A stretch of DNA of 64,000 bases from Patescibacteria group bacterium (GCA_041648575.1 JBAZOT010000003.1:14895-78894), one strand, 5' to 3'; shown: positions 26,932 through 61,081, counted from the stretch's first letter. Numbers and translations are program-made. Notes: generated by a model not told the origin, from the letters alone.

Positions 26932-27327
26932 CTAATTTGTTAATTGATAATATAATTTGTCCAGCTTTCCTTTAACGCTAAAATCGAACCGTTCGCCATC
27001 TATAACTACCACTACTCCACCCAGCAAATGTGGCTTAACCTGCCATTCAACAGTAAATTCTCCCGGAACAGATTTTTTCAAGCTACTTACTAAGCCTTTT
27101 TGCTCTTGAGTATTAAGCTCCCTGCCGGTGGTAATTAATATTTGATGTTCCTGAGTTAAAGAATGCCAAACATCGTTAACCTCCTGAACAATTCTCTTGC
27201 GCCAAACAAAATGCTTGTTTTTTAGAACTTGTTGCCATAAACAGTCAATAATTTTATCTTTATTTGCTGGCTGCCGCAAGACATCGGAGATTAATTGTTT
27301 AGCGTAATAGCGAGGACTTATTTTCAT
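26932..27327 (-). CDS. atpH: ATP synthase F1 delta (OSCP) subunit, short form
   Basis: Lies between atpF and atpA. C-terminal LLGGVVVVIDGERFDFSVKGKL. At 131 aa it is shorter than a typical delta subunit. Confidence 0.7.
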   Translation of the reverse strand: MKISPRYYAKQLISDVLRQPANKDKIIDCLWQQVLKNKHFVWRKRIVQEVNDVWHSLTQEHQILITTGRELNTQEQKGLVSSLKKSVPGEFTVEWQVKPHLLGGVVVVIDGERFDFSVKGKLDKLYYQLTN

Positions 27328-27329
27328 AA

Positions 27330-27845
27330 TTATTTTTTGTGATTACGATTAGTTATTTCTTGCATTGCTTCATCAATCACTTTTTTGTCTAAAGTAGGAG
27401 TTGTTACTTTACCTAAAACTTTAGCCACTGCTTGGACCACTAAACTAGAGGCCTGCTTTTTAACTTCATTTAACATCTCTTCTTTCTCCACTATAAATTT
27501 TTGACGTGTCTCCTGAACCACTCGTTCTGCTTCGGTACGTACTTTTTGCAACGTTTCCTGACGCTGGACTTCGCTTCTGGCTTCACCCTGGCGCTGAATT
27601 TCTTCCGACTGTTTTCTAGCCTCAGTTAAAACCTCTTCTCGAGTTATGGTTAATTGCTTCATTTCTTGTTCAATCCGTTTGGCGTCGGCTAGACTTTTTT
27701 CTATTTCCTTGGTCCGACTGTCCATAGTTTTCATTAATGGTTTAAGTGCAAATTTCCACAATACTCCTATTACAATACCGAAATTGATTAATTGGGCAAT
27801 CATTAATTTCCAATCAACGTGAAATGTATTTATAAAATCTTCCAT
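27330..27845 (-). CDS. atpF: ATP synthase Fo subunit b
   Basis: One N-terminal TM helix followed by a long charged coiled coil. The operon position fits. Confidence 0.8.
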   Translation of the reverse strand: MEDFINTFHVDWKLMIAQLINFGIVIGVLWKFALKPLMKTMDSRTKEIEKSLADAKRIEQEMKQLTITREEVLTEARKQSEEIQRQGEARSEVQRQETLQKVRTEAERVVQETRQKFIVEKEEMLNEVKKQASSLVVQAVAKVLGKVTTPTLDKKVIDEAMQEITNRNHKK

Positions 27846-27916
27846 AAATATTAATTAAAAATAATCATTTTTCGGCAGAAGGCTTGCGTTTTTCAAACCT
27901 TCTGAATGAAAAACAA

Positions 27917-28174
<258 letters not shown>

Positions 28175-28223
28175 TTATTATTTAACGTCACCAGCAAATA
28201 CTCAGTTAATTAATAAATGCAAA

Positions 28224-29153
28224 TTAATGTTCCTCTGCTGTCGAAGCAACAGAAAAATAAACTAAAGTTAGCATGGCAAAAATCAACGCCTGAACAACAC
28301 CCACTATTACTTCTAAAAACATGAAGGGTATAGGCAAGACAAAAGCAAAAATTACGGCAATTGATGCTAATAATACTTCACCTGCAAAAATATTACCAAA
28401 TAATCGAAAAGATAGTGAAGCGACTTTGGCCGCTTCTCCAATAATTTCAATCAAACCAACAAAAAATTTTACTGGACTGATAAAAATTACTGCCGGCTCT
28501 TTAATTATTTTCTTTGGTATATTTATTAATTCCTTAATGTTAATAAACTTATTAAAATATTTCCAAATGCCTACTGAAATAACGCCAAAAAGATTTGAAC
28601 CAATCACCGCCATCACTGCCAAAACAAAAGTAGTGTTGAAATCTGCGGTAGCGCCACGTAACAATGGAACAAAAACTTGGTGTCCGCTCTCAACCTCTAT
28701 AAAACCAACCGACCCAACTCCTGGTAACAATCCTAACCAATTATTCAATAGAATAAAAATAAAAATCACAAAAACAAAGGGAAAAATTTTAAGAGATTTT
28801 TTTCGATCACCGGTAACTTGGTCAGCCAACCCTAATGACCCTTCAATAATAGTTTCCAACGCAGTTTGCAACCGCGAGGGAATTCTGGTTATTCTTTTGC
28901 TAATTACCATAGCAAATAAAACCAAAATCACCACTACCAACCAAGAATTAATTAATGAATTAGTAACTGTAAAATTGCCAATGTGAAAAATCGGTTCTGA
29001 ATACAAAGTAACTTCGTGAGTTACCTGCTGTTCTATATTTTCTTCATTAATCAAGGTAGTTTCATTATTAACTGGTAATTGAAGATTATTGGTTTCTTCT
29101 GCTAACATCATTAGTGGTCTTTCTTTGACGCGCTTCTTTGTCTGCTTCCGCAA
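28224..29153 (-). CDS. atpB: ATP synthase Fo subunit a
   Basis: Polytopic protein with LSFRLFGNIFAGE (the conserved Arg helix). The real start may be the internal MMLAEE (about 29111). Confidence 0.85.
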   Translation of the reverse strand: MRKQTKKRVKERPLMMLAEETNNLQLPVNNETTLINEENIEQQVTHEVTLYSEPIFHIGNFTVTNSLINSWLVVVILVLFAMVISKRITRIPSRLQTALETIIEGSLGLADQVTGDRKKSLKIFPFVFVIFIFILLNNWLGLLPGVGSVGFIEVESGHQVFVPLLRGATADFNTTFVLAVMAVIGSNLFGVISVGIWKYFNKFINIKELINIPKKIIKEPAVIFISPVKFFVGLIEIIGEAAKVASLSFRLFGNIFAGEVLLASIAVIFAFVLPIPFMFLEVIVGVVQALIFAMLTLVYFSVASTAEEH

Positions 29154-29367
29154 TATATCTGGAAGCGATGCGAGTTATAGACAAGGTAGCAACAACAATT
29201 CCTAAACTTAATAAAATTAAAGTATACAGAGGTTCGCTATTATATATTTTATCCAAAATCCTGCCGCCATAAAGCGCCGCGATTATAGGCACCACAATTA
29301 ACCCAGTTACTTCCGAAAAAAGCGCCAGGGCTTGGTGCCACCACTGGTTATTTTTTTGCTCAATCAT
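29086..29367 (-). CDS. AtpZ/AtpI-like small membrane protein
   Basis: 93 aa with two TM helices. It is the first gene of the atp operon. Confidence 0.55.
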   Translation of the reverse strand: MIEQKNNQWWHQALALFSEVTGLIVVPIIAALYGGRILDKIYNSEPLYTLILLSLGIVVATLSITRIASRYIAEADKEARQRKTTNDVSRRNQ

Positions 29368-29493
29368 AGCTTTATTTTACCCCTAGACGCTCCTTTTGGA
29401 CAGCGCAATCTAAAGCATTGATTATTAACTCGCTCGGACTAAATAAACTTATGATGATAAATAAAAAGGGCAGTGGTAAAACCTCAAGCGAGT

Positions 29494-29522
29494 ATTATAA
29501 CCATTTTTTATGATTACGTCAA
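29494..29522 (-). promoter_or_regulatory. atp operon promoter TTGACG-17-TATAAT
   Basis: Reverse complement reads TTGACG TAATCATAAAAAATGGT TATAAT, about 120 nt upstream of ATG 29367. Confidence 0.65.
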
Positions 29523-29602
29523 TGGTTAATAAATTTTTTGGCTAAAATTAGATAAAAAACAAATATAACTCTAATTTTTAAGAGTTTTTTATCTATTATA
29601 AT

Positions 29603-30649
29603 TTATTCATCCTCGTTCTTCGGCTTATCTAAAACTAATGGTTCAATCTCGGCCGCCGTTCCAGAAATTCTTAGCACATCCTTATCTATCTTCCCCAATT
29701 CTTTATAAGCAATATTGTAAGTACTAACAGTTGTTCCTAAATGCCCACCCAACTTTTTCATATACTCTTCGTAACTGGCAATATGTCTCCCTAACGCTTC
29801 TACGTTTTTTCTAATCTCTTTAGCCGATTCTTCTATTTGTAAAGCTTTCAAACCCTGCAGCACAGTTTGTAAATATGCCAAAAAAGAAGTTGGCGAAACT
29901 ATAATCACATGTTTTTCTTTAAACGCATACTCAATTAAATCACGGGTATTAACTTTTACCGCGCCAACCTGTGTCACTAACAAATCATAATAAATTGCCT
30001 CATGCGGAATAAACATAAAAGCAAACTCCATGGTTTTTTCAGCTGGTTTTACGTATTTTGAAGTTTCATCAATTCGCGCCTTTAAATCAGCTTTAAAGGT
30101 TTTTTCTAACCGCTCGCGTTCTACTGGATCTCTTTCTTCAGCTAAACGATTATAATTTTCCAGAGAAAACTTAGAATCAATGGGAATAATTTTGTCTTTT
30201 ACAAAAACTACTGCGTCTACAATCGTACCGTCTTTAAATTCATATTGCATCTGGTAACTGCCAGTTGGTAAAACATTTTTTAATAAAGTCTCTAAATAAT
30301 ATTCACCCAATATTCCCCGCTGCTTTGGATTTTTCAAAATATCTTGTAAACTTTGCAGCTGATCAGCAAAATTAACCACCTGCTTGTTGGTTTCATCCAG
30401 CTTAGTCAGACGCTCGGTTACATCCCGTATTATTTTAGCTGACTCCCCAAACTGCTGTTGCATAGCCTTGGTTGATTCGCCCAATTTATTATCCAAAGTT
30501 CTGGTAATCTCATTTAGCTGGTTTTGGAGCATTAATAAACTATTTGCATCGGGTGCTGAACCAGTAGAAATGCGCGATTTCAATAATAAAAACAAGACGA
30601 CAAACCCTACTAGCACGACAATTAAAAGTATAATAAATTCTATACTCAT
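29603..30649 (-). CDS. rmuC: DNA recombination protein RmuC
   Basis: N-terminal TM helix and coiled coil, then the nuclease-like core FAFMFIPHEAIYYDL...VIIVSPTSFLAYL. Confidence 0.85.
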   Translation of the reverse strand: MSIEFIILLIVVLVGFVVLFLLLKSRISTGSAPDANSLLMLQNQLNEITRTLDNKLGESTKAMQQQFGESAKIIRDVTERLTKLDETNKQVVNFADQLQSLQDILKNPKQRGILGEYYLETLLKNVLPTGSYQMQYEFKDGTIVDAVVFVKDKIIPIDSKFSLENYNRLAEERDPVERERLEKTFKADLKARIDETSKYVKPAEKTMEFAFMFIPHEAIYYDLLVTQVGAVKVNTRDLIEYAFKEKHVIIVSPTSFLAYLQTVLQGLKALQIEESAKEIRKNVEALGRHIASYEEYMKKLGGHLGTTVSTYNIAYKELGKIDKDVLRISGTAAEIEPLVLDKPKNEDE

Positions 30650-30655
30650 AGAATT

Positions 30656-30683
30656 ATTATAACAGAACTTCGTTCTTTTGCCA
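30656..30683 (-). promoter_or_regulatory. promoter TGGCAA-16-TATAAT (TGT extended), with the -10 box 6 nt from the rmuC ATG (leaderless)
   Basis: Reverse complement reads TGGCAA AAGAACGAAGTTCTGT TATAAT AATTCT ATG. Confidence 0.5.
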
Positions 30684-30688
30684 GGATC

Positions 30689-30716
30689 TTATTTACTATA
30701 AAAATTGTGTTATACT
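30689..30716 (+). promoter_or_regulatory. extended -10 promoter (TGT TATACT) for the TonB-like gene
   Basis: TTATTT-16-TGTTATACT. The RBS AAGGAG lies 8 nt before ATG 30778. Confidence 0.4.
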
Positions 30717-30777
30717 TAAAGTAAATCTAACAAAAAGTGCCATTTTACAAATCAATACCCCTGAAAGGAGTAACGCC

Positions 30778-31488
30778 ATGACTAAAGCTCTGACTTTTAA
30801 TCGTACTACTTTTCCCCTTCTTTACCGTCGCTATTTAAGTATTGCTTTAACTATAGCAATCTTTGTACATCTTGCGGTAATTGCTGTTTATTATATTGTC
30901 TCGTCATTTACCGTTGAAGAGTCAATAGTAATGGTCAGACTAACAAAATATATCGACCTACCACCTCCACCATCAATAGATCAGGCTAATAATCCACCAA
31001 TAGTTAACTTTAATATACAAGCAACAATTGGAAAAGGGATACCCGTCCCTGTGCTTGACGCAGAAGTCAATCCCGATCAAACCATTGCTTCACAAACAGA
31101 ACTATCACAGCAAGCTAACGCCACCAGTAATATTTTAAATACTCAATCAAATGTAGAATTTATTCTTGACCAAAAAATTAATATTGAAGACGAGGAACCT
31201 CCTGATTTTGTGCCAGTAGAGAAACAACCTGTGCCTGTTAAGACTCAACAACCAGCATATCCTGAAATTGCCAGACGAGCTGGTGTGGAAGGAACTGTTT
31301 GGGTAAAAATTCTTATAGATAAAGAAGGTAAAGCTAAGAAAGCGGTAATTATTAAAAGCGATGCAGAGATATTTAATGAAGCGGCAATTCAGGCTGCACT
31401 GCAATGGGTGTTTACGCCCGCTATGATGAATAATGGTCCAGTTCAAGTATGGGCCGCTGTTCCTTTTCGTTTTAAATTAAATAAATAA
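30778..31488 (+). CDS. TonB-like protein (N-terminal TM, Pro-rich linker, TonB C-terminal domain)
   Basis: Carries LPPPPSIDQANNPP, and a C-terminus PAYPEIARRAGVEGTVWVKILIDKEGKAKKAVIIKSD...ALQWVFTPAMMNNGPVQVW. Confidence 0.65.
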   Translation: MTKALTFNRTTFPLLYRRYLSIALTIAIFVHLAVIAVYYIVSSFTVEESIVMVRLTKYIDLPPPPSIDQANNPPIVNFNIQATIGKGIPVPVLDAEVNPDQTIASQTELSQQANATSNILNTQSNVEFILDQKINIEDEEPPDFVPVEKQPVPVKTQQPAYPEIARRAGVEGTVWVKILIDKEGKAKKAVIIKSDAEIFNEAAIQAALQWVFTPAMMNNGPVQVWAAVPFRFKLNK

Positions 31489-31526
31489 AAAAACTGCTTT
31501 GACAACATCAACTCAATAAACAAAAC

Positions 31527-31556
31527 AATCCCGTGTATTCCATCACGGGATTTTAA
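31527..31556 (+). terminator. intrinsic terminator of the TonB-like gene
   Basis: AATCCCGTG pairs with CACGGGATT, followed by TTTTAATTT. Confidence 0.6.
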
Positions 31557-31591
31557 TTTACCAAATAAATGTAATAATCCGAGTCGACAAC

Positions 31592-31629
31592 TAGTCATTT
31601 TTATGTCTGGCCAGACATAAAAATGACTA
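31592..31629. repeat. 38-bp perfect palindrome TAGTCATTTTTATGTCTGG|CCAGACATAAAAATGACTA
   Basis: Read directly from the sequence. It shares the outer arms CAACTAGTCATTT...AAATGACTA with 32712-32749. Confidence 0.8.
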
Positions 31630-31764
31630 TCCCAATTTAAAGGGGAAATGGAGAAAATTTTTGGAATAAAATACATTCGAACCGCCACGCGATTTTAAAT
31701 ACCAAAAAAGGGCCACAAAACCAACTAAAACTATTATGATTAAAAATATAAATTCCGTATTCAT
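31627..31764 (-). CDS. possible 45-aa hydrophobic peptide (leaderless)
   Basis: My translation is MNTEFIFLIIIVLVGFVALFWYLKSRGGSNVFYSKNFLHFPFKLG. TGC-TAGAAT (31771-76) lies 6 nt before the ATG. It is below the ORF-track size cutoff. Confidence 0.3.
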   Translation of the reverse strand: MNTEFIFLIIIVLVGFVALFWYLKSRGGSNVFYSKNFLHFPFKLG

Positions 31765-31778
31765 AACACCATTCTAGC

Positions 31779-31815
31779 AAAAAAGAAAGGGTCTGGAAAT
31801 ACAATCCCAGACCCC
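31779..31815 (-). terminator. intrinsic terminator of the 240-aa gene
   Basis: The minus strand reads GGGTCTGG...CCAGACCC followed by TTTCTTTTTT. Confidence 0.6.
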
Positions 31816-31843
31816 ATGAAACTACTATCTAATGGCCTTAGTG

Positions 31844-32566
31844 CTAAAACGATTGAAATGATCGGACAATCTTATCCACCCAGCTAGCCCTACGCATTAA
31901 CTCGTTAGCTATCTGCGGTGCTTGACCCTCCATTACCTTCGCCTCCTCAATCAGTATATTCCTCATCTCAACATTGGTGAGACCAGAAACATCATACCAA
32001 GCCAACGCGGTATCCAGATAAGAAATATTACCTGGTTCCATGTATCGTTCTCCAGTAACAACACTACGCATACCGTCGCTATAGAAACTGAGATACAAAT
32101 TACCAACCATCACCGCCGAGCGCGAAGCTGATACCGTATCACCGCACTTGATGTATAAGTGATAAGCATACTCTGGAAAACTCTTTCTCCCATAACCATC
32201 ATCACAATGTGGTATCCCATAGTATGTTAAGTCTGCTAGGAGTAAGCCCCACCCCTGACGTCTCTTGAACCAGTATGGATCATCACAGGAACTATCACAT
32301 ATCTGATAAATCCTTCTCACTGTGTTTACAAACTCCCAACCACAATAAAATGGGTCATCGGTCCCTGAATAACCCCCTACATCAGTCCATGAATAATTAT
32401 CTGGGTTATATCTCATACCCTCCACAATCTTATACTCGACCAGATTCTTGACCAAAGTGCGATAAGACTGTTCAGGGGACTCTTGCTTTTCCTTGGCAGG
32501 TAAAGTGTTATTTATGACTAAACCAGCCACAGCCAAAAAGATAATGATTGTAAAGTACTTTTTCAT
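31844..32566 (-). CDS. secreted Cys-rich hypothetical protein
   Basis: 240 aa with signal peptide MKKYFTIIIFLAVAGLV and 8 Cys. By eye it is more GC-rich at codon third positions than its neighbours. It has its own promoter and terminator. Confidence 0.55.
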   Translation of the reverse strand: MKKYFTIIIFLAVAGLVINNTLPAKEKQESPEQSYRTLVKNLVEYKIVEGMRYNPDNYSWTDVGGYSGTDDPFYCGWEFVNTVRRIYQICDSSCDDPYWFKRRQGWGLLLADLTYYGIPHCDDGYGRKSFPEYAYHLYIKCGDTVSASRSAVMVGNLYLSFYSDGMRSVVTGERYMEPGNISYLDTALAWYDVSGLTNVEMRNILIEEAKVMEGQAPQIANELMRRASWVDKIVRSFQSF

Positions 32567-32651
32567 ATAACACCTGTTTATTTTTGTTTAATAAATTCCC
32601 CATTATTTGGGACTTTTTTAAAGATCTTTACTGTTTTTACAATAACAATAC

Positions 32652-32680
32652 ATAATACGGCAAACTACTTTATTTGTCAA
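32652..32680 (-). promoter_or_regulatory. promoter TTGACA-17-TATTAT for the 240-aa gene
   Basis: Reverse complement reads TTGACA AATAAAGTAGTTTGCCG TATTAT. AGGTG lies 6 nt before the ATG. Confidence 0.6.
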
Positions 32681-32711
32681 TATCCATACTAAACTAGATT
32701 AAATCACCAAC

Positions 32712-32749
32712 TAGTCATTTACCCTTTCGCGCGAAAGGGTAAATGACTA
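32712..32749. repeat. 38-bp perfect palindrome TAGTCATTTACCCTTTCGC|GCGAAAGGGTAAATGACTA
   Basis: Read directly from the sequence. It lies between the arsR-like stop and the promoter of the 240-aa gene. Confidence 0.8.
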
Positions 32750-32777
32750 AAGAAATAATTTATGCATAAACAGTTAA

Positions 32778-33056
32778 TTAGCTAGTCTGACGGACTTGCT
32801 TAAGAAGCTGCTGCAACAAACTACTTAACCCCTCATCTAAACTATATAGACCTACGTATCCAAATTGCCTGCGTTCTAAAAACCCCACTTGCCGCAATAG
32901 CACTAAGTGTTTAGAGGTGGACTTAAATGATAGATGAATCGCCGTCGCAACGTCACCTACTGTCCGCTCTTTACCATCGGACAACAACCTTAGTATCTCC
33001 AGCCGCTTTCTCGCACCCAGCGCCCGGTAAACCTTTTCTAACTCTCGTAGACGCAT
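32778..33056 (-). CDS. ArsR/SmtB-family transcriptional regulator
   Basis: 92 aa with a winged HTH: LGARKRLEILRLLSDGKERTVGDVATAIHLSFKSTSKHLVLLRQVGFLERR. I see no obvious metal-binding Cys. Confidence 0.8.
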   Translation of the reverse strand: MRLRELEKVYRALGARKRLEILRLLSDGKERTVGDVATAIHLSFKSTSKHLVLLRQVGFLERRQFGYVGLYSLDEGLSSLLQQLLKQVRQTS

Positions 33057-33062
33057 GTTGGT

Positions 33063-33100
33063 AGTATATCATATTTACTGATTCGCGCGAAAGGGTAAAT
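33063..33100 (-). promoter_or_regulatory. leaderless arsR promoter (TGA TATACT, 6 nt from the ATG) overlapped by a degenerate copy of the TTTACCC..GGGTAAA palindrome
   Basis: ATTTACTGATTCGCGCGAAAGGGTAAAT (33073-33100) covers the -35 position and may be an operator. Confidence 0.45.
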
Positions 33101-33120
33101 AATCATATAAACCAACACAT

Positions 33121-33960
33121 TTACAAACTAAATAAATTTCTCGCATTTTGAGTTGTAACCCTAGCCAGCTCGTCTAAACTTATATTTTTCAATTCAGCTA
33201 TTTTCTTTGCCACCTCCACTATATACGCCGGCTCGTTGCGGGTGCCCCGATAAGCTTGGGGGGCCAGATACGGCGCGTCTGTTTCTACCATTATCCTATC
33301 AATTGGAGTTTCTTTTACTACTTTTAACAATCCCGGACTGGCATTTTTAAAAGTAATAATTCCGGTAAACGATAATAAAAATCCTAAATCTAAAAATTGT
33401 TTAGCTTGCTCTTGGGTACCTAAAAAACAATGAGCCACGCCCTTTTTTGATAATCTACCTTTGTCTAATTCTTGTTTTAAAATCATCAACAAATCATCAT
33501 AAGCTTCACGGCAATGAATAATAACAGGTAAATTAAGTTCGTCGGCTAAAGTAATATGCTGCCTAAACAATTCTTGTTGCTTTGTTTTAACTTCTGTCTT
33601 ATCAACGCCATCTGGAAAACGATAATAATCCAATCCACACTCCCCTATGGCTACCACTTTACTACCAGAACCACGTGCTAAAGCAGAATATCTTGATGGA
33701 TTAAAAACCTCGGCCCGAGTTTTAAAATAAATTTCTTCCTCATCCACTTCTTGCTCAAATAAATGAATGGGATGAAGCCCAATCGCGGCATATAAATTAT
33801 CATGTTCCTGTGCTAATTTTACTGCCCGCTCCGATGTGTCCCATTGACTGCCAAGATTAATAATACAAGTCACACCAGCACGATGAGCTCGTTTAATTAC
33901 CTCATCAGTATCATTCTTAAACGCATTAAAATTCAAATGGCAGTGAGTATCAATCAACAT
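33121..33960 (-). CDS. tatD: TatD-family metal-dependent hydrolase/DNase
   Basis: Carries MLIDTHCHL, GECGLDY, PVIIHCREA and VETDAPYLAP. Confidence 0.9.
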   Translation of the reverse strand: MLIDTHCHLNFNAFKNDTDEVIKRAHRAGVTCIINLGSQWDTSERAVKLAQEHDNLYAAIGLHPIHLFEQEVDEEEIYFKTRAEVFNPSRYSALARGSGSKVVAIGECGLDYYRFPDGVDKTEVKTKQQELFRQHITLADELNLPVIIHCREAYDDLLMILKQELDKGRLSKKGVAHCFLGTQEQAKQFLDLGFLLSFTGIITFKNASPGLLKVVKETPIDRIMVETDAPYLAPQAYRGTRNEPAYIVEVAKKIAELKNISLDELARVTTQNARNLFSL

Positions 33961-44819: not shown

Positions 44820-47393
44820 TTATAATTTACTGGCTTTTTCTACCCTCACCACGCTCCCCGGCTCTAGCACTACCACATCTCTACGGGTCAATTTACCAGT
44901 TAATAAATAATTTGCCAAAGCATTATCAACTTTATCTTGAATTACCCGTTGCAAAGGTCGTGCTCCGTATAATGGATCAAATCCTTCGCGTGCTAATTCT
45001 TCAATTGCCGTTGCTGAAGCTTGCAAAGTTATTCCTTTGGTTAATAAATTTCGCGCCAATTTATCTAGCAATAATTTAGTTATAGCAATTACGTTTTGAA
45101 AATCTAACGGTTTAAAAACTACCACGCCATCAAATCTATTAATCAATTCCGGTCTAAAATACTGTTTTAATTCATTTTGTAATAAGTATTGATGAATTTG
45201 TATAATGGTCTTGCCTTGACGCATGCTGTCCTGAATAAATTGCGTGCCAGCATTAGAAGTGGCAATGATAATCGTGTTAGTGAAATCAACAGTTCGTCCA
45301 GTTGAATCAGTTAACCGACCGTCATCGAATAACTGTAAAAAGACATTTAAAATATCAGGATGAGACTTTTCAAATTCATCAAGTAAAATTAAAGCGTAGG
45401 GAGCTTGCCTTACTGCTTCGGTTAAGTAACCAGCTTCCCGACCCATCCCTGGCGGCGCGCCTATTAGTCGATAAATGCTCTCGGCAGTTTGATATTCTGA
45501 CATATCCAAACGAATCATCTTGTTTTCGCCGCCAAAATATTCAGCTGCCACGGTTTTTGCTAATTCTGTTTTACCAACACCTGTCGGGCCTAAAAATAAA
45601 AAAGTGGCAATTGGCCGTGATGCTGTCCGTAACTCAACGCGTGCCCGCCTTAAAGCTGCTGCCACCAACCGCACAGCTTCGTCTTGGCCAATAATGCGCT
45701 GATGTAAAATATCCTCCAAATTAAGCAACCTTTCGCCCTCGGCCTTGCTGATTTTGGTAACTGGCACATTTACTTTTCCCGACACCAGTTGAGCAATATC
45801 TTCAGCGGTAATAGTTGTATTCTCTTTATTTTTTTGCCTGACAAATACTGCAGCTTCTTCACAAATCTTAATGGCTTTCTCTGGTAAAAAACGATCAGGA
45901 ATAAAACGCCGTGATAAATCCACCGCTTGTGCTAAGGCCCCATAAGAAAAATAAACTTTATGCTGATATTCAAGCTGCCCCACTGTTGCCTCTAAAATTT
46001 GTATGGCCACATCGTTTGTTGGCTCTTCTATTTTTACTTTTTCCAAAGCATTACCCAAAGAAGTACGATCCAAATAACTGCGCTGGTCGCTGGGGGTAGT
46101 AGACGCTAAAGTAATAATCCCTGACTTACCAATAAAATTGGCGATCATTTCTGACACATCTAAATTTTCCTTGCCACCAGTACTTTGACCCACTAAATTA
46201 TGAATGTCATCAATATATAAAATAATATTGCTAGCTCGCGATATCTCATTCATGATTTGCAGTAACTTATGTTCAACTTCATTAGCATTGTTAGCGCCGC
46301 CAACTAATGCGGGTACTGATAACTGAATCAATTTTTTGTCTTTCATTGTCTCTGGTACTTCTTCGGCCACCATAGCTTGGGCAATACCCTCGACAATTGC
46401 TGTTTTACCGACGCCCGATTCACCAACTAAAACCACGCTGGAATGACCACCTTCAATAATGCGGAAAATTTCCTGAATTTCCTTATCGCGTCCAATACAA
46501 GGCTTCAGATATCCATGAGCTGCCAAATAGGTTAATTCATGACTAATTTGATCTAATAAAGGCGTAGCTACGGCTAAATAGGCTCGATCTAAAGCATGGC
46601 GCGGGCGCCAGGCTGCTTTTCGCGCACGACGCGATACTTCTTGCCGTAAACGGCGCCTAACAGCAAACCAAATAGTAATATTTTCTATCATCACTGGTTC
46701 AATAGCCAACTCATCTAAAACTTCCCGCGCTAAAGATTCATTTTTAGCTATGGCTAAAAGCATTTCTCCAACTTCAACTTGCTGACTTCGCTGGACTAAA
46801 GCCAATTCAGTCGCCTTAACAAAAATTCCTTGCACTGAATTGCTTAATTGTGGATTAGTACCAGTGGTTACTTTAGTCAACGCGTTTGATAAAGTATTAA
46901 ATAACTTATCTGGATCAACACCTAATCTGGAAAAAACCGCTTGTCCACTTCTGGTTTTTAAAGAGGCAGCCAATAAATGAATTTCCTTAATTTCATTATG
47001 CGAAAATTTATGGGCATATCGAAACGCCTCTTCCAGTAACTGCCAAACTTCGGGTGACAAATAATTCTCAACTTTAATAGCTTGATCTTTAGCGTCAATT
47101 AAAATTTTATGAGCAGTCCGTTCCTGTTCTAAGCGATAAAAAGTATAACCAAAAAAGAAAACTGCCAACCAAAATAATCGATGTAGCTCGGCTGGCGGCA
47201 TAATTGACTCCCACCAAAATCCTCCTTGTTCAATAAATAAAAATAATCGCCAGAAATAAAATACCAAAAAAATTATCGCTAACAACAATGAACAACCACC
47301 CACTAAGCGATACATTAACTGGCGAAATTTGCGCGCCAATAACGACGGTAAAGTTGGTTTTATTGTCCAGGCAATGACCGACATTTTAAACAA
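44820..47393 (-). CDS. ClpC/ClpB-like double AAA+ ATPase with N-terminal transmembrane helices
   Basis: Two hydrophobic helices lie in residues about 30-95, followed by Clp_N-like repeats. Also present are GESGVGKTA and GPTGVGKTE Walker A motifs, and sensor GARPLQRVI. No long M-domain is evident. Confidence 0.85.
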   Translation of the reverse strand: MFKMSVIAWTIKPTLPSLLARKFRQLMYRLVGGCSLLLAIIFLVFYFWRLFLFIEQGGFWWESIMPPAELHRLFWLAVFFFGYTFYRLEQERTAHKILIDAKDQAIKVENYLSPEVWQLLEEAFRYAHKFSHNEIKEIHLLAASLKTRSGQAVFSRLGVDPDKLFNTLSNALTKVTTGTNPQLSNSVQGIFVKATELALVQRSQQVEVGEMLLAIAKNESLAREVLDELAIEPVMIENITIWFAVRRRLRQEVSRRARKAAWRPRHALDRAYLAVATPLLDQISHELTYLAAHGYLKPCIGRDKEIQEIFRIIEGGHSSVVLVGESGVGKTAIVEGIAQAMVAEEVPETMKDKKLIQLSVPALVGGANNANEVEHKLLQIMNEISRASNIILYIDDIHNLVGQSTGGKENLDVSEMIANFIGKSGIITLASTTPSDQRSYLDRTSLGNALEKVKIEEPTNDVAIQILEATVGQLEYQHKVYFSYGALAQAVDLSRRFIPDRFLPEKAIKICEEAAVFVRQKNKENTTITAEDIAQLVSGKVNVPVTKISKAEGERLLNLEDILHQRIIGQDEAVRLVAAALRRARVELRTASRPIATFLFLGPTGVGKTELAKTVAAEYFGGENKMIRLDMSEYQTAESIYRLIGAPPGMGREAGYLTEAVRQAPYALILLDEFEKSHPDILNVFLQLFDDGRLTDSTGRTVDFTNTIIIATSNAGTQFIQDSMRQGKTIIQIHQYLLQNELKQYFRPELINRFDGVVVFKPLDFQNVIAITKLLLDKLARNLLTKGITLQASATAIEELAREGFDPLYGARPLQRVIQDKVDNALANYLLTGKLTRRDVVVLEPGSVVRVEKASKL

Positions 47394-47736
47394 AAATTAA
47401 AATTAATGACACTGGTAACAATGCCAGCCAAATTAAAAAAATCGCCGTGTACCACAACACCCAAAAAACCAAACGAATAAATTTATAGATCACCAAAACC
47501 GTGCGCATCAATAAACTAATGGCGCGCCCCGAAATGGTGTAATCGCCATACATTGGCTTAAAAAAGTATTTTAAAAATAACCCCAGAGCCAACCGTTCCC
47601 AGGTATTATGAAGACTTTCTAAGCAATACTGGCCAACCATTTTTAACCCACCAGTATACCACCACCAAGGGAACCGCCACAGGTCGCCAATAACATTTAA
47701 AGCTAATTTACTAACTTCTTCCCGCGCATATGTCAT
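47386..47736 (-). CDS. hypothetical membrane protein
   Basis: 116 aa with WRFPWWWYTGG and 2 C-terminal TM helices. Overlaps the Clp-like gene by 8 nt. Confidence 0.5.
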   Translation of the reverse strand: MTYAREEVSKLALNVIGDLWRFPWWWYTGGLKMVGQYCLESLHNTWERLALGLFLKYFFKPMYGDYTISGRAISLLMRTVLVIYKFIRLVFWVLWYTAIFLIWLALLPVSLILIFV

Positions 47737-60593: not shown

Positions 60594-60700
60594 CATGAAG
60601 TATATGCTAGCAAATTAATACGCCATGAAGTTGTATAAAGAAGTAAATACTTCTTGGCTCGCCATGAAGTTATGCGAATAAAATGAGCATATACTTCATG
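60594..60700. repeat. cluster of CATGAAGT/ACTTCATG repeats abutting the tmRNA 3' end
   Basis: A 15-bp inverted repeat CATGAAGTATATGCT (60594-608) pairs with AGCATATACTTCATG (60686-700). The direct repeat CGCCATGAAGTT occurs twice, and there is an inner hairpin AGAAGTA-AA-TACTTCT. Confidence 0.6.
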
Positions 60701-61081
60701 GTGGAGATGGCGGGAATTACACCCGCGTCTAAGACAATTAACTTTACCCTTCTACAAACTTAGTCTGATTAATTTTGACAGAAGTCAAATCAGACCAAAG
60801 CCCCTGTCAATCTGTCCTAAGTAATGTCGGCCTAAGCACTAGAACAATACTTAAACCCTGCTCGATAAATGACGCTCTATAAGACTATCGAGATCGTCTA
60901 ATAGAACGGCCTCTGCTTAAATTAAGCAAAAGCTGGTGCTAGTGTCAAAGTGCTAAAAGCAGCTTTGGCGCGAGCTACAAATGATTTGGCATTTGTGAAG
61001 TGTGATGCTTTTATTACGCAGACACATCAACTGCGGTCTGCCAGACAAAGATCACTGCCTTATCGATTGTTAAACATCCCC
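60699..61081 (-). ncRNA. ssrA: tmRNA (transfer-messenger RNA)
   Basis: The 5' GGGGATG pairs with the 3' CATCTCC-A-CCA, including a G3.U pair. T-arm GCGGG-TGTAATT-CCCGC. An internal tag frame ends ...LAPAFA-TAA with the stop inside hairpin GCTTAA-TT-TAAGC. Adjacent to smpB. Confidence 0.85.

What the first reader, a model, noticed from the sequence alone, without database searches (positions are those of the whole stretch)
30650..33120. Accessory islet (TonB-like, secreted Cys-rich protein, ArsR) between rmuC and tatD
What the sequence shows: three genes, each with its own promoter and terminator, interrupt an otherwise co-directional housekeeping run, and one of them is on the opposite strand. 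The TonB-like protein has a TM helix, a Pro-rich linker and a TonB C-terminal domain, but no exbBD or TonB-dependent receptor is nearby. That would be unexpected if the organism lacks an outer membrane. The 240-aa secreted protein looks compositionally different (more G/C at third positions by eye; not computed). Inference: horizontally acquired cargo, possibly from a diderm donor or host.
Basis: partly seen in the sequence, partly recalled or inferred. Interest (0 to 1): 0.5.

Follow-up and report, generated by a model that had tools for sequence, protein, structure and literature searches.

The report
Mosaic accessory islet at CPR recombination hotspot
Three small accessory genes sit in a gap between two housekeeping genes of an ultra-small (Patescibacteria) bacterium, a gap that relatives leave empty or fill with other genes; one of the three is a TonB gene that came from outer-membrane-bearing Ignavibacteria-type bacteria, and the other two arrived recently by recombination with another Patescibacteria genome.

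Summary
Between rmuC (29603-30649) and tatD (33121-33960) lie a TonB-family gene (+ strand), an orphan 240-aa signal-peptide protein and a 92-aa ArsR-type regulator.

1. The TonB gene is of diderm ancestry. Its nearest non-CPR relatives are Ignavibacteria/Bacteroidota TonBs (59-67% identity overall, 86% in the C-terminal domain), which sit in exbB-exbD-exbD-tonB operons. The gene is old here: low GC3 (0.228), purifying selection, and the same site in at least three other Patescibacteria genomes.

2. The ArsR gene and the 240-aa gene deviate in composition (GC3 0.473 and 0.432; window mean 0.304). A genome 99-100% identical in the outer flanks lacks both. All their detectable homologs with known context are from Patescibacteria.

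3. Relics show how they arrived. A truncated second rmuC 5' end with its promoter is fused to the 3' tail of a PaaX-like gene. This points to recombination between two alternative versions of the same locus.

Across related CPR genomes the tatD-rmuC junction is a hotspot. It is empty in many and holds ArsR, a methyltransferase-containing gene pair, a possible IS110-like gene or orphans in others.

Verdict: an ordinary kind of feature in an unusual lineage. The orphan TonB is the most interesting part.

The parts
29603..30649 (-). rmuC, left core flank of the hotspot. A promoter-like site (CTGGCA-17-TATAAT) lies at 30684-30656.
   Evidence: Pfam RmuC 187 bits. Promoter scan. 99% aa identity but pS 0.43 against L001.
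30778..31488 (+). TonB-family gene: N-terminal TM anchor with His31, Pro-containing linker, TonB_C domain. It is the only plus-strand gene in the run.
   Evidence: PF03544 6.9e-22; TIGR01352 58.3 bits. Homologs and CPR clade. dN/dS 0.19-0.28 overall and 0.08-0.19 in the C-terminal domain. GC3 0.228.
31527..31552 (.). Bidirectional terminator-like hairpin after the TonB gene.
   Evidence: Terminator scan on both strands. RNA fold -13.9 kcal/mol, z -4.8. Conserved position in L001 and L002.
31592..31629 (.). P1, a 38-nt perfect palindrome. It is the ancestral hairpin that follows tatD in relatives, here pushed 1.5 kb away from tatD by the insertion.
   Evidence: RNA fold -26.5 kcal/mol, z -5.1. 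The same ATGTCTGGCCAGACAT-type core lies between tatD and rmuC in the empty site of L014, and in L002/L055 and L004.
31636..31677 (-). Relic of the 3' end of a PaaX-like gene. The intact gene sits at this position in relative L004.
   Evidence: tblastn gives 13 of 14 aa identical to the L004 184-aa protein C-terminus, E 1.9e-4. DNA comparison. The L004 protein hits PaaX_M at 57 bits.
31678..31764 (-). Truncated second copy of the rmuC 5' end (29 codons, MNTEFIFLIIIVLVGFVALFWYLKSRGGS), fused in frame to the PaaX-like relic. Its own promoter (TTTCCA-17-TAGAAT) lies at 31799-31771.
   Evidence: Translation and alignment with the rmuC 5' regions of the window, L001, L002, L004 and L009. Promoter scan. 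Coordinates.
31788..31815 (-). Intrinsic terminator of the 240-aa gene (11-bp stem followed by a T run).
   Evidence: RNA fold -19.4 kcal/mol, z -4.0.
31844..32566 (-). Orphan 240-aa protein with an N-terminal signal-peptide-like segment, predicted to be an all-alpha TPR-like repeat. Promoter TTGACA-17-TATTAT lies at 32680-32652.
32712..32749 (.). P2, a 38-nt perfect palindrome just after the ArsR stop codon. Its 28-nt core is ATTTACCCTTTCGCGCGAAAGGGTAAAT.
   Evidence: RNA hairpin -31.2 kcal/mol, z -8.3. The core is 100% conserved 3' of the ArsR homologs in L008, L009 and L010, and differs at one base in L011, although the genes are only 65-75% identical in DNA. 31 metagenome loci carry it.
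32778..33056 (-). 92-aa ArsR/SmtB-type winged-helix regulator with no Cys and no recognisable metal site.
   Evidence: HTH_5 32.6 bits. NCBIfam HTH_metalloreg 52 bits, below the cutoff of 55. 0 Cys; His only at 41 and 50. Homologs at 73-87% identity in CPR contigs. GC3 0.473.
33063..33100 (-). P3, an imperfect copy of the palindrome (33073-33100, ATTTACCCTTTCGCGCGAATCAGTAAAT), directly followed by a TATACT -10 box (33068-33063). This is the arsR promoter and a candidate operator.
   Evidence: The same asymmetric site with the same -10 spacing lies upstream of the ArsR homologs in L008, L009 and L011. It does not form a stable hairpin (-10.1 kcal/mol, z -1.1).
33121..33960 (-). tatD, right core flank. 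Its 3' end is part of the divergent recombination tract.
   Evidence: Pfam TatD_DNase 279 bits. Identity to L001 rises from 69% at the 3' end to 100% by 33421.

Best explanation
The interval fills a recombination hotspot between tatD and rmuC in a Veblenbacteria-like Patescibacteria genome. It is a three-layer mosaic, not one island.

Layer 1, TonB.
- A TonB-family gene was acquired once from an Ignavibacteria/Bacteroidota-type diderm. In that donor lineage the gene belongs to an exbB-exbD-exbD-tonB operon.
- It has since been kept, without exbBD next to it, between the tatD-proximal hairpin P1 and rmuC in a small CPR clade.
- It is codon-ameliorated and under purifying selection, strongest in the C-terminal domain.
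- Inference: it is a functional cytoplasmic-membrane-anchored protein whose C-terminal domain reaches into the wall or surface layer and binds a partner. Classical energy transduction to an outer-membrane receptor is unlikely unless a motor and receptor are encoded elsewhere in the genome.

Layer 2, ArsR module.
- This is a self-contained small ArsR-type winged-helix unit.
- Its promoter is embedded in an imperfect copy of a 28-bp palindrome, and a perfect hairpin-forming copy follows its stop codon.
- Inference: the protein binds the palindrome and represses its own promoter, while the downstream copy acts as a terminator.

Layer 3, the 240-aa gene.
- This is an orphan exported TPR-like protein with its own strong promoter and terminator.
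- Inference: it is a surface or secreted protein-binding scaffold.

How layers 2 and 3 arrived.
- They entered together and recently, by recombination with DNA from another Patescibacteria genome carrying a different version of the locus (tatD-ArsR-...-rmuC).
- One crossover fell in or near tatD.
- The other was an illegitimate joint. It left 29 codons of the donor rmuC with its promoter, fused to the last 14 codons of a resident PaaX-like gene that was otherwise overwritten.

The confidence given applies to the structural and evolutionary account (hotspot, three histories, recombination relics). The functional inferences for each protein are individually less certain, roughly 0.3-0.5.
For: Hotspot.
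- metG-cvpA-tatD-[X]-rmuC-atp synteny is conserved in about 25 CPR species representatives.
- X is empty in L014, L017, L018, L020, L023, L024 and L025.
- X holds ArsR (L009, L022, L100, L116), TonB (L055), a PaaX-like gene (L004), an N6_N4 methylase plus a 220-aa ORF (L077), a weak IS110-like ORF (L082) or orphans (L016, L021, L026).
- The cargo proteins are unrelated to one another.

TonB.
- 1408 homologs were found. Only 4 of the top 120 are CPR; the labelled remainder are Ignavibacteria/Bacteroidota at 55-67% identity.
- The four CPR copies are monophyletic.
- The Ignavibacteriales homolog lies in an exbB-exbD-exbD-tonB operon.
- The gene occupies the same site in L001, L002 and L004.
- The C-terminal domain is 86% identical to the Ignavibacteriales protein, His31 is invariant, and dN/dS is 0.08-0.28.
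- GC3 is 0.228.

Recent insertion.
- L001 is 99-100% identical to the window at 26960-28160 and beyond 33421, yet lacks 31493-33128.
- Identity falls to 69-90% around the hotspot.
- The rmuC' and PaaX' relics are described.
- GC3 is 0.432 and 0.473.
- ArsR-bearing relatives span 37-55% GC.

ArsR module.
- Conserved sites lie upstream and downstream of four homologs in different contexts.
- P2 forms a hairpin of -31 kcal/mol, whereas P3 is not a stable hairpin.

240-aa protein.
Against: - Polarity between the window and L001 (insertion here versus deletion there) cannot be proved from two genomes. The relics show only that two locus versions were joined.
- The whole genome could not be searched, so ExbB/ExbD, TolQR or MotAB-type motors, or a receptor, may exist elsewhere.
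- TonB distribution is patchy against RmuC identity: present at 99%, 92% and 74%, absent at 85-90%. Lateral spread among CPR genomes and repeated loss are not distinguished.
- The palindrome mostly occurs without an adjacent ArsR gene (22 of 31 metagenome loci) and mostly between convergent genes. That fits a terminator or REP-like element at least as well as an operator.
- The promoter of the 240-aa gene lies about 45 bp beyond P2, which is not a classical repression geometry.
- The TPR-like fold rests on a 4-sequence alignment (pLDDT 72).
Confidence: 0.7

Rival explanations
1. One reading: the three genes are a single horizontally acquired island from a diderm donor or host.
For: The TonB gene has Ignavibacteria/Bacteroidota ancestry. 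Two of the three genes have the highest GC3 values near this locus. The interval is absent from many relatives.
Against: TonB is shared at this site by relatives that lack the other two genes, and it has low GC3. The ArsR homologs whose context was read are on CPR-type contigs, several at the same tatD-rmuC site. The nearest relative of the 240-aa protein is on a contig that also looks CPR-type. The internal relics of rmuC and a PaaX-like gene separate the two parts physically.
Confidence: 0.05
2. The long palindromes (P1, P2, P3) are recombination sites of a cassette-type or REP-like mobile system. They, rather than flanking homology, drive cargo turnover at this locus, with the small ArsR as the cognate DNA-binding protein.
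For: Only four perfect palindromes with stems of 11 or more exist in the 64 kb, and the two longest are in the islet. P2 copies bracket ArsR here and in L100, and bracket an orphan gene in L026 that has no ArsR next to it. The 28-nt core is identical across genomes whose coding DNA is 65-75% identical. Outer stem bases covary from locus to locus. In L011 a tyrosine recombinase lies next to the module.
Against: No integrase or transposase lies in the window. The observed joint (rmuC'::PaaX') is not at a palindrome. Cargo in L016, L021 and L077 has no such palindrome. Most genomic copies lie between convergent genes, as terminators do. The palindrome is perfect, so it lacks the bulged bases typical of integron attC sites. 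There are no matches in viral contigs.
Confidence: 0.15
3. Metagenome assembly or binning artefact: a chimera of two strains, or a diderm fragment joined to a CPR contig.
For: The source is a MAG contig. A divergent tract lies within otherwise near-identical sequence, so co-occurring strains are plausible.
Against: TonB lies between CPR core genes on independent contigs from different samples and projects (L001, L002/L003/L055, L004/L005). The 240-aa gene was also assembled independently in a Logan contig. The rmuC'::PaaX' joint links non-homologous sequences, so k-mer overlap could not create it. TonB has backbone-like composition.
Confidence: 0.04
4. The three-gene state is ancestral for this species, and the closest relative L001 lost ArsR and the 240-aa gene by deletion.
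For: Polarity cannot be fixed from two genomes. L001 carries a different palindrome (GAACTATTCACGTGAATAGTTC) at the site, so it too has been rearranged.
Against: The ArsR and 240-aa genes have non-backbone GC3. The relics show that a PaaX-like gene, intact in relative L004 (same MAG as L015, whose RmuC is 91-92% identical), was overwritten. No other sampled genome carries the 240-aa gene.
Confidence: 0.12

Closest known systems
TonB energy transducer (Pfam TonB_C PF03544, TIGR01352), specifically the ~240-aa TonB of Ignavibacteria/Bacteroidota exbB-exbD-exbD-tonB operons
   Same: The length and three-part architecture match. The TM histidine is invariant and the PPPS motif is kept. The C-terminal domain is 86% identical to an Ignavibacteriales protein.
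   Different: The host is a Patescibacteria lineage reported to lack an outer membrane and generally TonB (PMC7137472). The gene stands alone on the opposite strand between housekeeping genes. No exbB, exbD or receptor was found in the sequence available. The N-terminal and TM regions have diverged (44% identity to the Ignavibacteriales protein).
Genomic islets at recombination hotspots between conserved core genes
   Same: Two syntenic core genes flank a site that is empty or differently filled in relatives. Divergence rises in the flanks. Cargo includes a methyltransferase gene pair, regulators, a possible IS and orphans.
   Different: The islet is very small (2.5 kb) and sits in a reduced CPR genome. 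No tRNA, integrase or direct-repeat boundaries are present. The joint is an illegitimate fusion that left relics of both parental locus versions.
ArsR/SmtB family autorepressors (for example SdpR-like members without metal sites)
   Same: A winged-helix HTH_5 domain of about 90 aa, with a palindromic site overlapping the gene's own promoter.
   Different: It has no Cys and no alpha-3 or alpha-5 metal ligands. It scores just below the NCBIfam family cutoff. Its candidate site is 28 bp long, and identical copies are dispersed at gene 3' ends in related genomes.
REP-like extragenic palindromes and bidirectional intrinsic terminators
   Same: P2 forms a very stable hairpin, lies after stop codons and mostly between convergent genes, occurs several times per genome in some relatives, and has covarying outer stems.
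   Different: The 28-nt core is identical across genomes that have diverged strongly elsewhere. It has a conserved non-hairpin variant inside a promoter. No RAYT-type gene was seen.
TPR/Sel1-like helical repeat proteins
   Different: No sequence-profile match to any TPR or Sel1 family. Only three distant relatives exist among 1.8e9 representative proteins.

Membership tests
TonB family (energy transducer TonB) | C-terminal TonB_C domain | tested here: met
   PF03544 78.1 bits against a cutoff of 24.6. TIGR01352 58.3 bits against 27.1.
TonB family (energy transducer TonB) | N-terminal single TM anchor with the conserved histidine used for coupling to ExbB/ExbD | tested here: met
   A hydrophobic segment lies at about residues 19-43. 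His31 is invariant in 4 CPR and 7 Ignavibacteria/Bacteroidota sequences. The role of this His is taken from knowledge of E. coli TonB H20, not from a test here.
TonB family (energy transducer TonB) | Pro-rich periplasm-spanning linker | tested here: met
   14 Pro in residues 51-155, including the PPPPS, IPVPV and PVPVK motifs.
TonB system (functional energy transduction) | ExbB/ExbD proton-motive motor encoded in the genome | tested here: inconclusive
   tblastn with Ignavibacteriales ExbB, ExbD1 and ExbD2 found nothing in the 64-kb window or in 1.08 Mb of related CPR loci. None appears among the Pfam-annotated genes of about 20 further kb of the contig. The rest of the genome was not available.
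TonB system (functional energy transduction) | Outer membrane with TonB-dependent transporters carrying a TonB box | not testable with these tools
   None of the seven largest ORFs in the window is a transporter; they are gyrB, pheT, an addA-like helicase-nuclease, clpB, ileS, argS and a DUF11 protein. Literature reports no outer membrane in Patescibacteria. The whole genome is not available.
ArsR/SmtB metalloregulators | Winged-helix HTH_5 DNA-binding domain | tested here: met
   PF01022 32.6 bits against a cutoff of 22.
ArsR/SmtB metalloregulators | Metal or metalloid sensing site (alpha-3 CxC, or alpha-5 His/Asp/Glu cluster) | tested here: not met
   0 Cys, and His only at positions 41 and 50. 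NCBIfam HTH_metalloreg scores 52 bits, below the cutoff of 55. It should therefore be filed as an ArsR-type fold, not as a demonstrated metal sensor.
Integron gene cassettes | IntI integrase next to the array, and attC sites (imperfect palindromes with extrahelical bases) | tested here: not met
   No tyrosine recombinase in the window. P1 and P2 are perfect palindromes without bulges. The genes carry their own promoters.
Integrative island (tRNA/integrase type) | Integrase, a tRNA or tmRNA target, and direct-repeat boundaries | tested here: not met
   The only structured RNA found by Rfam is a tmRNA at 60699-61081, far from the islet. There is no integrase. The boundaries are a hairpin and an illegitimate gene fusion.
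Anti-phage defence systems (PADLOC) | A match to any defence-protein profile beyond generic domains | tested here: not met
   Only generic wHTH similarity of ArsR to Csa3/CasR HTH domains. Nothing for TonB or the 240-aa protein.

The most novel reading that the evidence does not exclude
An outer-membrane-less Patescibacteria lineage has kept a TonB taken from Ignavibacteria/Bacteroidota-type bacteria, possibly its hosts, and has held the C-terminal partner-binding domain almost unchanged (86% identity). It may do so because the protein still engages the donor lineage's machinery, for example TonB boxes or other beta-strand ligands of host envelope proteins. That would make it a host-interaction factor rather than an uptake component of its own envelope. 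A T9SS-type sorting-domain protein on the same contig would be a second borrowed Bacteroidota envelope feature and would point to the same partner lineage.
Probability: 0.08. Interest if true: 0.75.

Novelty: new member of a known kind. Interest (0 to 1): 0.4.

Why it matters
Hosts and partners of most Patescibacteria are unknown, and their envelopes are thought to lack an outer membrane. A TonB gene of clear Ignavibacteria/Bacteroidota ancestry, kept under purifying selection without its motor genes nearby, is a concrete lead of two kinds. First, it may mark who these cells exchange DNA with. A T9SS sorting-domain protein on the same contig points to the same donor group. Second, it is a test case for what a TonB C-terminal domain does without an outer membrane.

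The locus also documents, at base-pair resolution, how a reduced CPR genome swaps small cargo: by recombination between alternative versions of one core-gene junction, leaving gene relics behind. The 28-bp palindrome tied to a minimal ArsR-type protein is a candidate regulatory or repeat element that could be tested directly.

Tried and rejected
- AlphaFold2 on the 240-aa protein alone gave pLDDT 42 and was unusable. Only the 4-sequence alignment gave an interpretable model.
- The afdb50 fold library was not available.
- Pfam, NCBIfam, PHROGs and PADLOC gave nothing for the 240-aa protein beyond a signal-peptide-like match. Pfam also gave nothing for its three distant homologs.
- The idea that hotspot cargo proteins in different genomes belong to one family was rejected by all-against-all BLASTP.
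- A phage or virus vector was rejected. Neither the palindrome nor ArsR has any match in IMG/VR contigs.
- An integrase- or transposase-driven island was rejected for this window.
- 'Cys-rich secreted protein' as a defining trait was rejected, because the Cys residues are not conserved.
- Elevated GC3 as evidence of diderm origin was rejected. The high-GC3 genes have relatives in CPR genomes of higher GC, while the diderm-derived gene has low GC3.
- Literature searches for TonB in CPR/Patescibacteria found only the statement that TonB is generally missing from the group.
- The taxon of the P0123 contig could not be determined.

Full report
**What is there**

The window is a Patescibacteria (CPR) MAG contig of 101 kb. 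Sources label the proteins 'Patescibacteria group bacterium', and the closest named RmuC relatives are Candidatus Veblenbacteria and Kerfeldbacteria.

The interval 30650-33120 lies between rmuC (29603-30649, -) and tatD (33121-33960, -), inside a long minus-strand run of housekeeping genes (atp operon, cvpA, metG, rsmI).
- a TonB-family ORF on the plus strand (30778-31488; PF03544 78 bits, TIGR01352 58 bits);
- a 240-aa ORF with a signal-peptide-like N-terminus and no family match (31844-32566, -);
- a 92-aa ArsR/HTH_5 ORF (32778-33056, -).

**Composition**

GC3 over 64 ORFs of the window averages 0.304 (sd 0.049). ArsR (0.473) and the 240-aa ORF (0.432) are at the top of the distribution. TonB (0.228) is below the mean. 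'Cys-rich' is weak: the protein has 5 Cys, and none is conserved in the few homologs.

**Signals**

- The 240-aa gene has a near-consensus promoter (TTGACA-17-TATTAT) and a clean terminator.
- TonB has a bidirectional terminator.
- Overall, promoter-like matches are no more frequent than in shuffles (8 versus 8.2). Terminator-like sites are enriched (6 versus 1.9).

**TonB gene: origin**

- Of 1408 homologs, the top 120 contain four CPR sequences (100, 84, 70 and 69% identity). Those of the remainder that carry a taxon label are Ignavibacteria/Bacteroidota proteins of about 240 aa at 55-67% identity.
- The four CPR sequences form one clade.
- In an Ignavibacteriales genome the homolog is the fourth gene of an exbB-exbD-exbD-tonB-...-PBP-TPR operon.
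- In the CPR genomes it always stands alone, on the opposite strand, immediately upstream of rmuC. The arrangement is rmuC-TonB-tatD in L001 and L002/L055, and rmuC-TonB-PaaX-like-tatD in L004.

**TonB gene: constraint**

- The C-terminal domain is 84-94% identical among CPR copies and 86% identical to the Ignavibacteriales protein.
- The TM histidine (His31) is invariant.
- dN/dS is 0.19-0.28 overall and 0.08-0.19 in the C-terminal domain.
- No ExbB or ExbD is detectable in the window, in 1.08 Mb of related CPR loci, or in about 20 kb more of the contig.
- Published work reports that Patescibacteria lack an outer membrane and generally lack TonB (PMC7137472).

Taken together, this is an old, single transfer from a diderm lineage, followed by retention under selection. 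Its present function is inferred, not shown. I favour a membrane-anchored protein whose C-terminal domain binds a wall or surface partner. From my own knowledge, TonB C-terminal domains bind partners by beta-strand pairing and have reported affinity for peptidoglycan.

**The hotspot**

A scan of GTDB species representatives with an RmuC alignment gave 80 CPR loci. About 25 of them keep the metG-cvpA-tatD-[X]-rmuC-atp order. X varies as follows:
- empty in L014, L017, L018, L020, L023, L024 and L025;
- an ArsR gene in L009, L022, L100 and L116;
- TonB in L055;
- an N6_N4 methyltransferase plus a 220-aa ORF in L077;
- a weak IS110-like ORF in L082;
- unrelated orphans in L016, L021 and L026.

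The cargo proteins share no similarity with one another.

**The recent event**

L001 (GCA_043806155.1) is 99-100% identical to the window at 26960-28160 and again inside tatD beyond 33421. Identity falls to 82-90% across rmuC and TonB and to 69-84% at the tatD 3' end. L001 has 121 bp where the window has 31493-33128. Synonymous divergence rises from 0.05 (atpF) to 0.64 (rmuC), although RmuC is 99% identical in protein.

Two relics lie inside the window's extra DNA:
- 31678-31764 (-) is a second rmuC start (MNTEFIFLIIIVLVGFVALFWYLKSRGGS) with its own TAGAAT promoter and upstream hairpin. It resembles the rmuC upstream region of the ArsR-type locus L009.
- It is fused in frame to 31636-31677, the last 14 codons of a PaaX-like gene that is intact at this position in L004 (13 of 14 aa identical).

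The simplest reading is as follows. A resident tatD-PaaX-like-P1-TonB-rmuC locus recombined with donor DNA of the type tatD-ArsR-(240 aa)-rmuC. One crossover fell in or near tatD, and the other was an illegitimate joint. The joined sequences are not homologous, and the TonB arrangement recurs in independent assemblies, so an assembly chimera is unlikely.

**ArsR module and palindromes**

The ArsR protein has 20 homologs, 15 of them at 71-87% identity, on CPR-type contigs wherever context could be read. They lie at the same tatD-rmuC site (L009/L010, L100, L116) or next to folD (L008, L011). It has no Cys and no recognisable metal site, and it scores just under the NCBIfam family cutoff.

In the window and in L008, L009 and L011 the gene is preceded by the same imperfect palindrome, followed at a fixed distance by a TATACT-type -10 box. 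The gene is followed by the perfect palindrome ATTTACCCTTTCGCGCGAAAGGGTAAAT, or a one-base variant of it in L011. The downstream copy folds into a hairpin of -31 kcal/mol (z -8.3), whereas the upstream copy does not form a stable hairpin (z -1.1).

An exact-match scan found the core in 31 metagenome loci:
- only 9 have ArsR nearby;
- most copies lie between convergent genes;
- the outer stem bases covary from locus to locus.

In the window, only four perfect palindromes with stems of 11 or more exist, and the two longest (P1 and P2) are in the islet. A P1-type hairpin also marks the empty site of L014.

I read P3 as the arsR promoter and operator (inference), and P2 as a terminator or REP-like hairpin that travels with the module. 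A role in recombination is not excluded.

**The 240-aa protein**

- It is alone in 5.8e9 protein clusters.
- It has three distant relatives in a full HMMER scan of 1.8e9 representatives. The best is 28% identical at E 1.4e-10, and its gene sits next to secY on a contig that looks CPR-type from its gene content.
- It is best described as a fast-evolving exported helical-repeat protein of unknown partner.

**Verdict**

The feature is a small mosaic islet at a core-gene recombination hotspot, which is a known kind of thing. The unusual element is an orphan, diderm-derived TonB kept under selection in an outer-membrane-less lineage. A T9SS type A sorting-domain protein about 7 kb outside the window on the same contig hints at repeated gene flow from the same donor group.

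Noticed in passing
L128 18065-19045 (same contig, about 7 kb beyond window position 1): A 326-aa signal-peptide protein with a T9SS type A C-terminal sorting domain (PF18962 35.6 bits, TIGR04183 38.5 bits) and backbone-like GC3 (0.318). This is a second Bacteroidota/Ignavibacteria-type envelope feature on the CPR contig.
   Followed up: partly
window 26960-33560 compared with L001: DNA identity to the near-identical genome L001 is 99-100% in the outer flanks. It falls to 82-90% over rmuC-TonB and to 69-84% at the tatD 3' end. RmuC is 99% identical in protein, yet pS is 0.43. This is a roughly 5-kb divergent tract centred on the hotspot.
   Followed up: yes
L094-L124 (metagenome loci); L026 3732-3759 and 4974-5013; L100 2902-2939, 3238-3269 and 4406-4431: The 26-28-nt palindrome core TTTACCCTTTCGCGCGAAAGGGTAAA recurs exactly in 31 metagenome loci, with several copies per genome in some samples. 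Most copies lie between convergent genes and have locus-specific complementary stem extensions. In L026 copies bracket an orphan gene in the same tatD-rmuC gap.
   Followed up: partly
window 31627-31799 (-): The rmuC'::PaaX' fusion is still an intact 46-codon ORF (MNTEF...FPFKLG) with a TM-like helix and a TG-extended TAGAAT promoter. It could be expressed as a small membrane peptide.
   Followed up: no
L128 14006-14266 (same contig, outside the window): A second small ArsR-type gene (86 aa, 35% identical to the islet ArsR) sits between thyA and folA in a nucleotide-metabolism cluster.
   Followed up: partly
window 47386-47736 (-): A 116-aa ORF with no Pfam match and GC3 0.444, the only other ORF in the window with GC3 above 0.40. 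It overlaps the start of clpB by 8 bases.
   Followed up: no
L077 3955-5902: In a Komeilibacteria genome the same tatD-rmuC gap holds an N6_N4 DNA methyltransferase plus a 220-aa ORF, probably a restriction-modification pair. In L082 the gap holds a weak IS110-like ORF.
   Followed up: partly
L012 6001-6939: The nearest relative of the 240-aa protein (P0122, 28% identity) is encoded immediately after secY at the end of a ribosomal-protein operon.
   Followed up: no
window 60699-61081 (-): A tmRNA gene (Rfam RF00023, 97.5 bits) next to smpB. It is the only Rfam match in the window.
   Followed up: no
L129 11089-19861 (same contig, beyond the window end): Two very large ORFs (1305 and 1554 aa) with no Pfam match lie just outside the window.
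   Followed up: no
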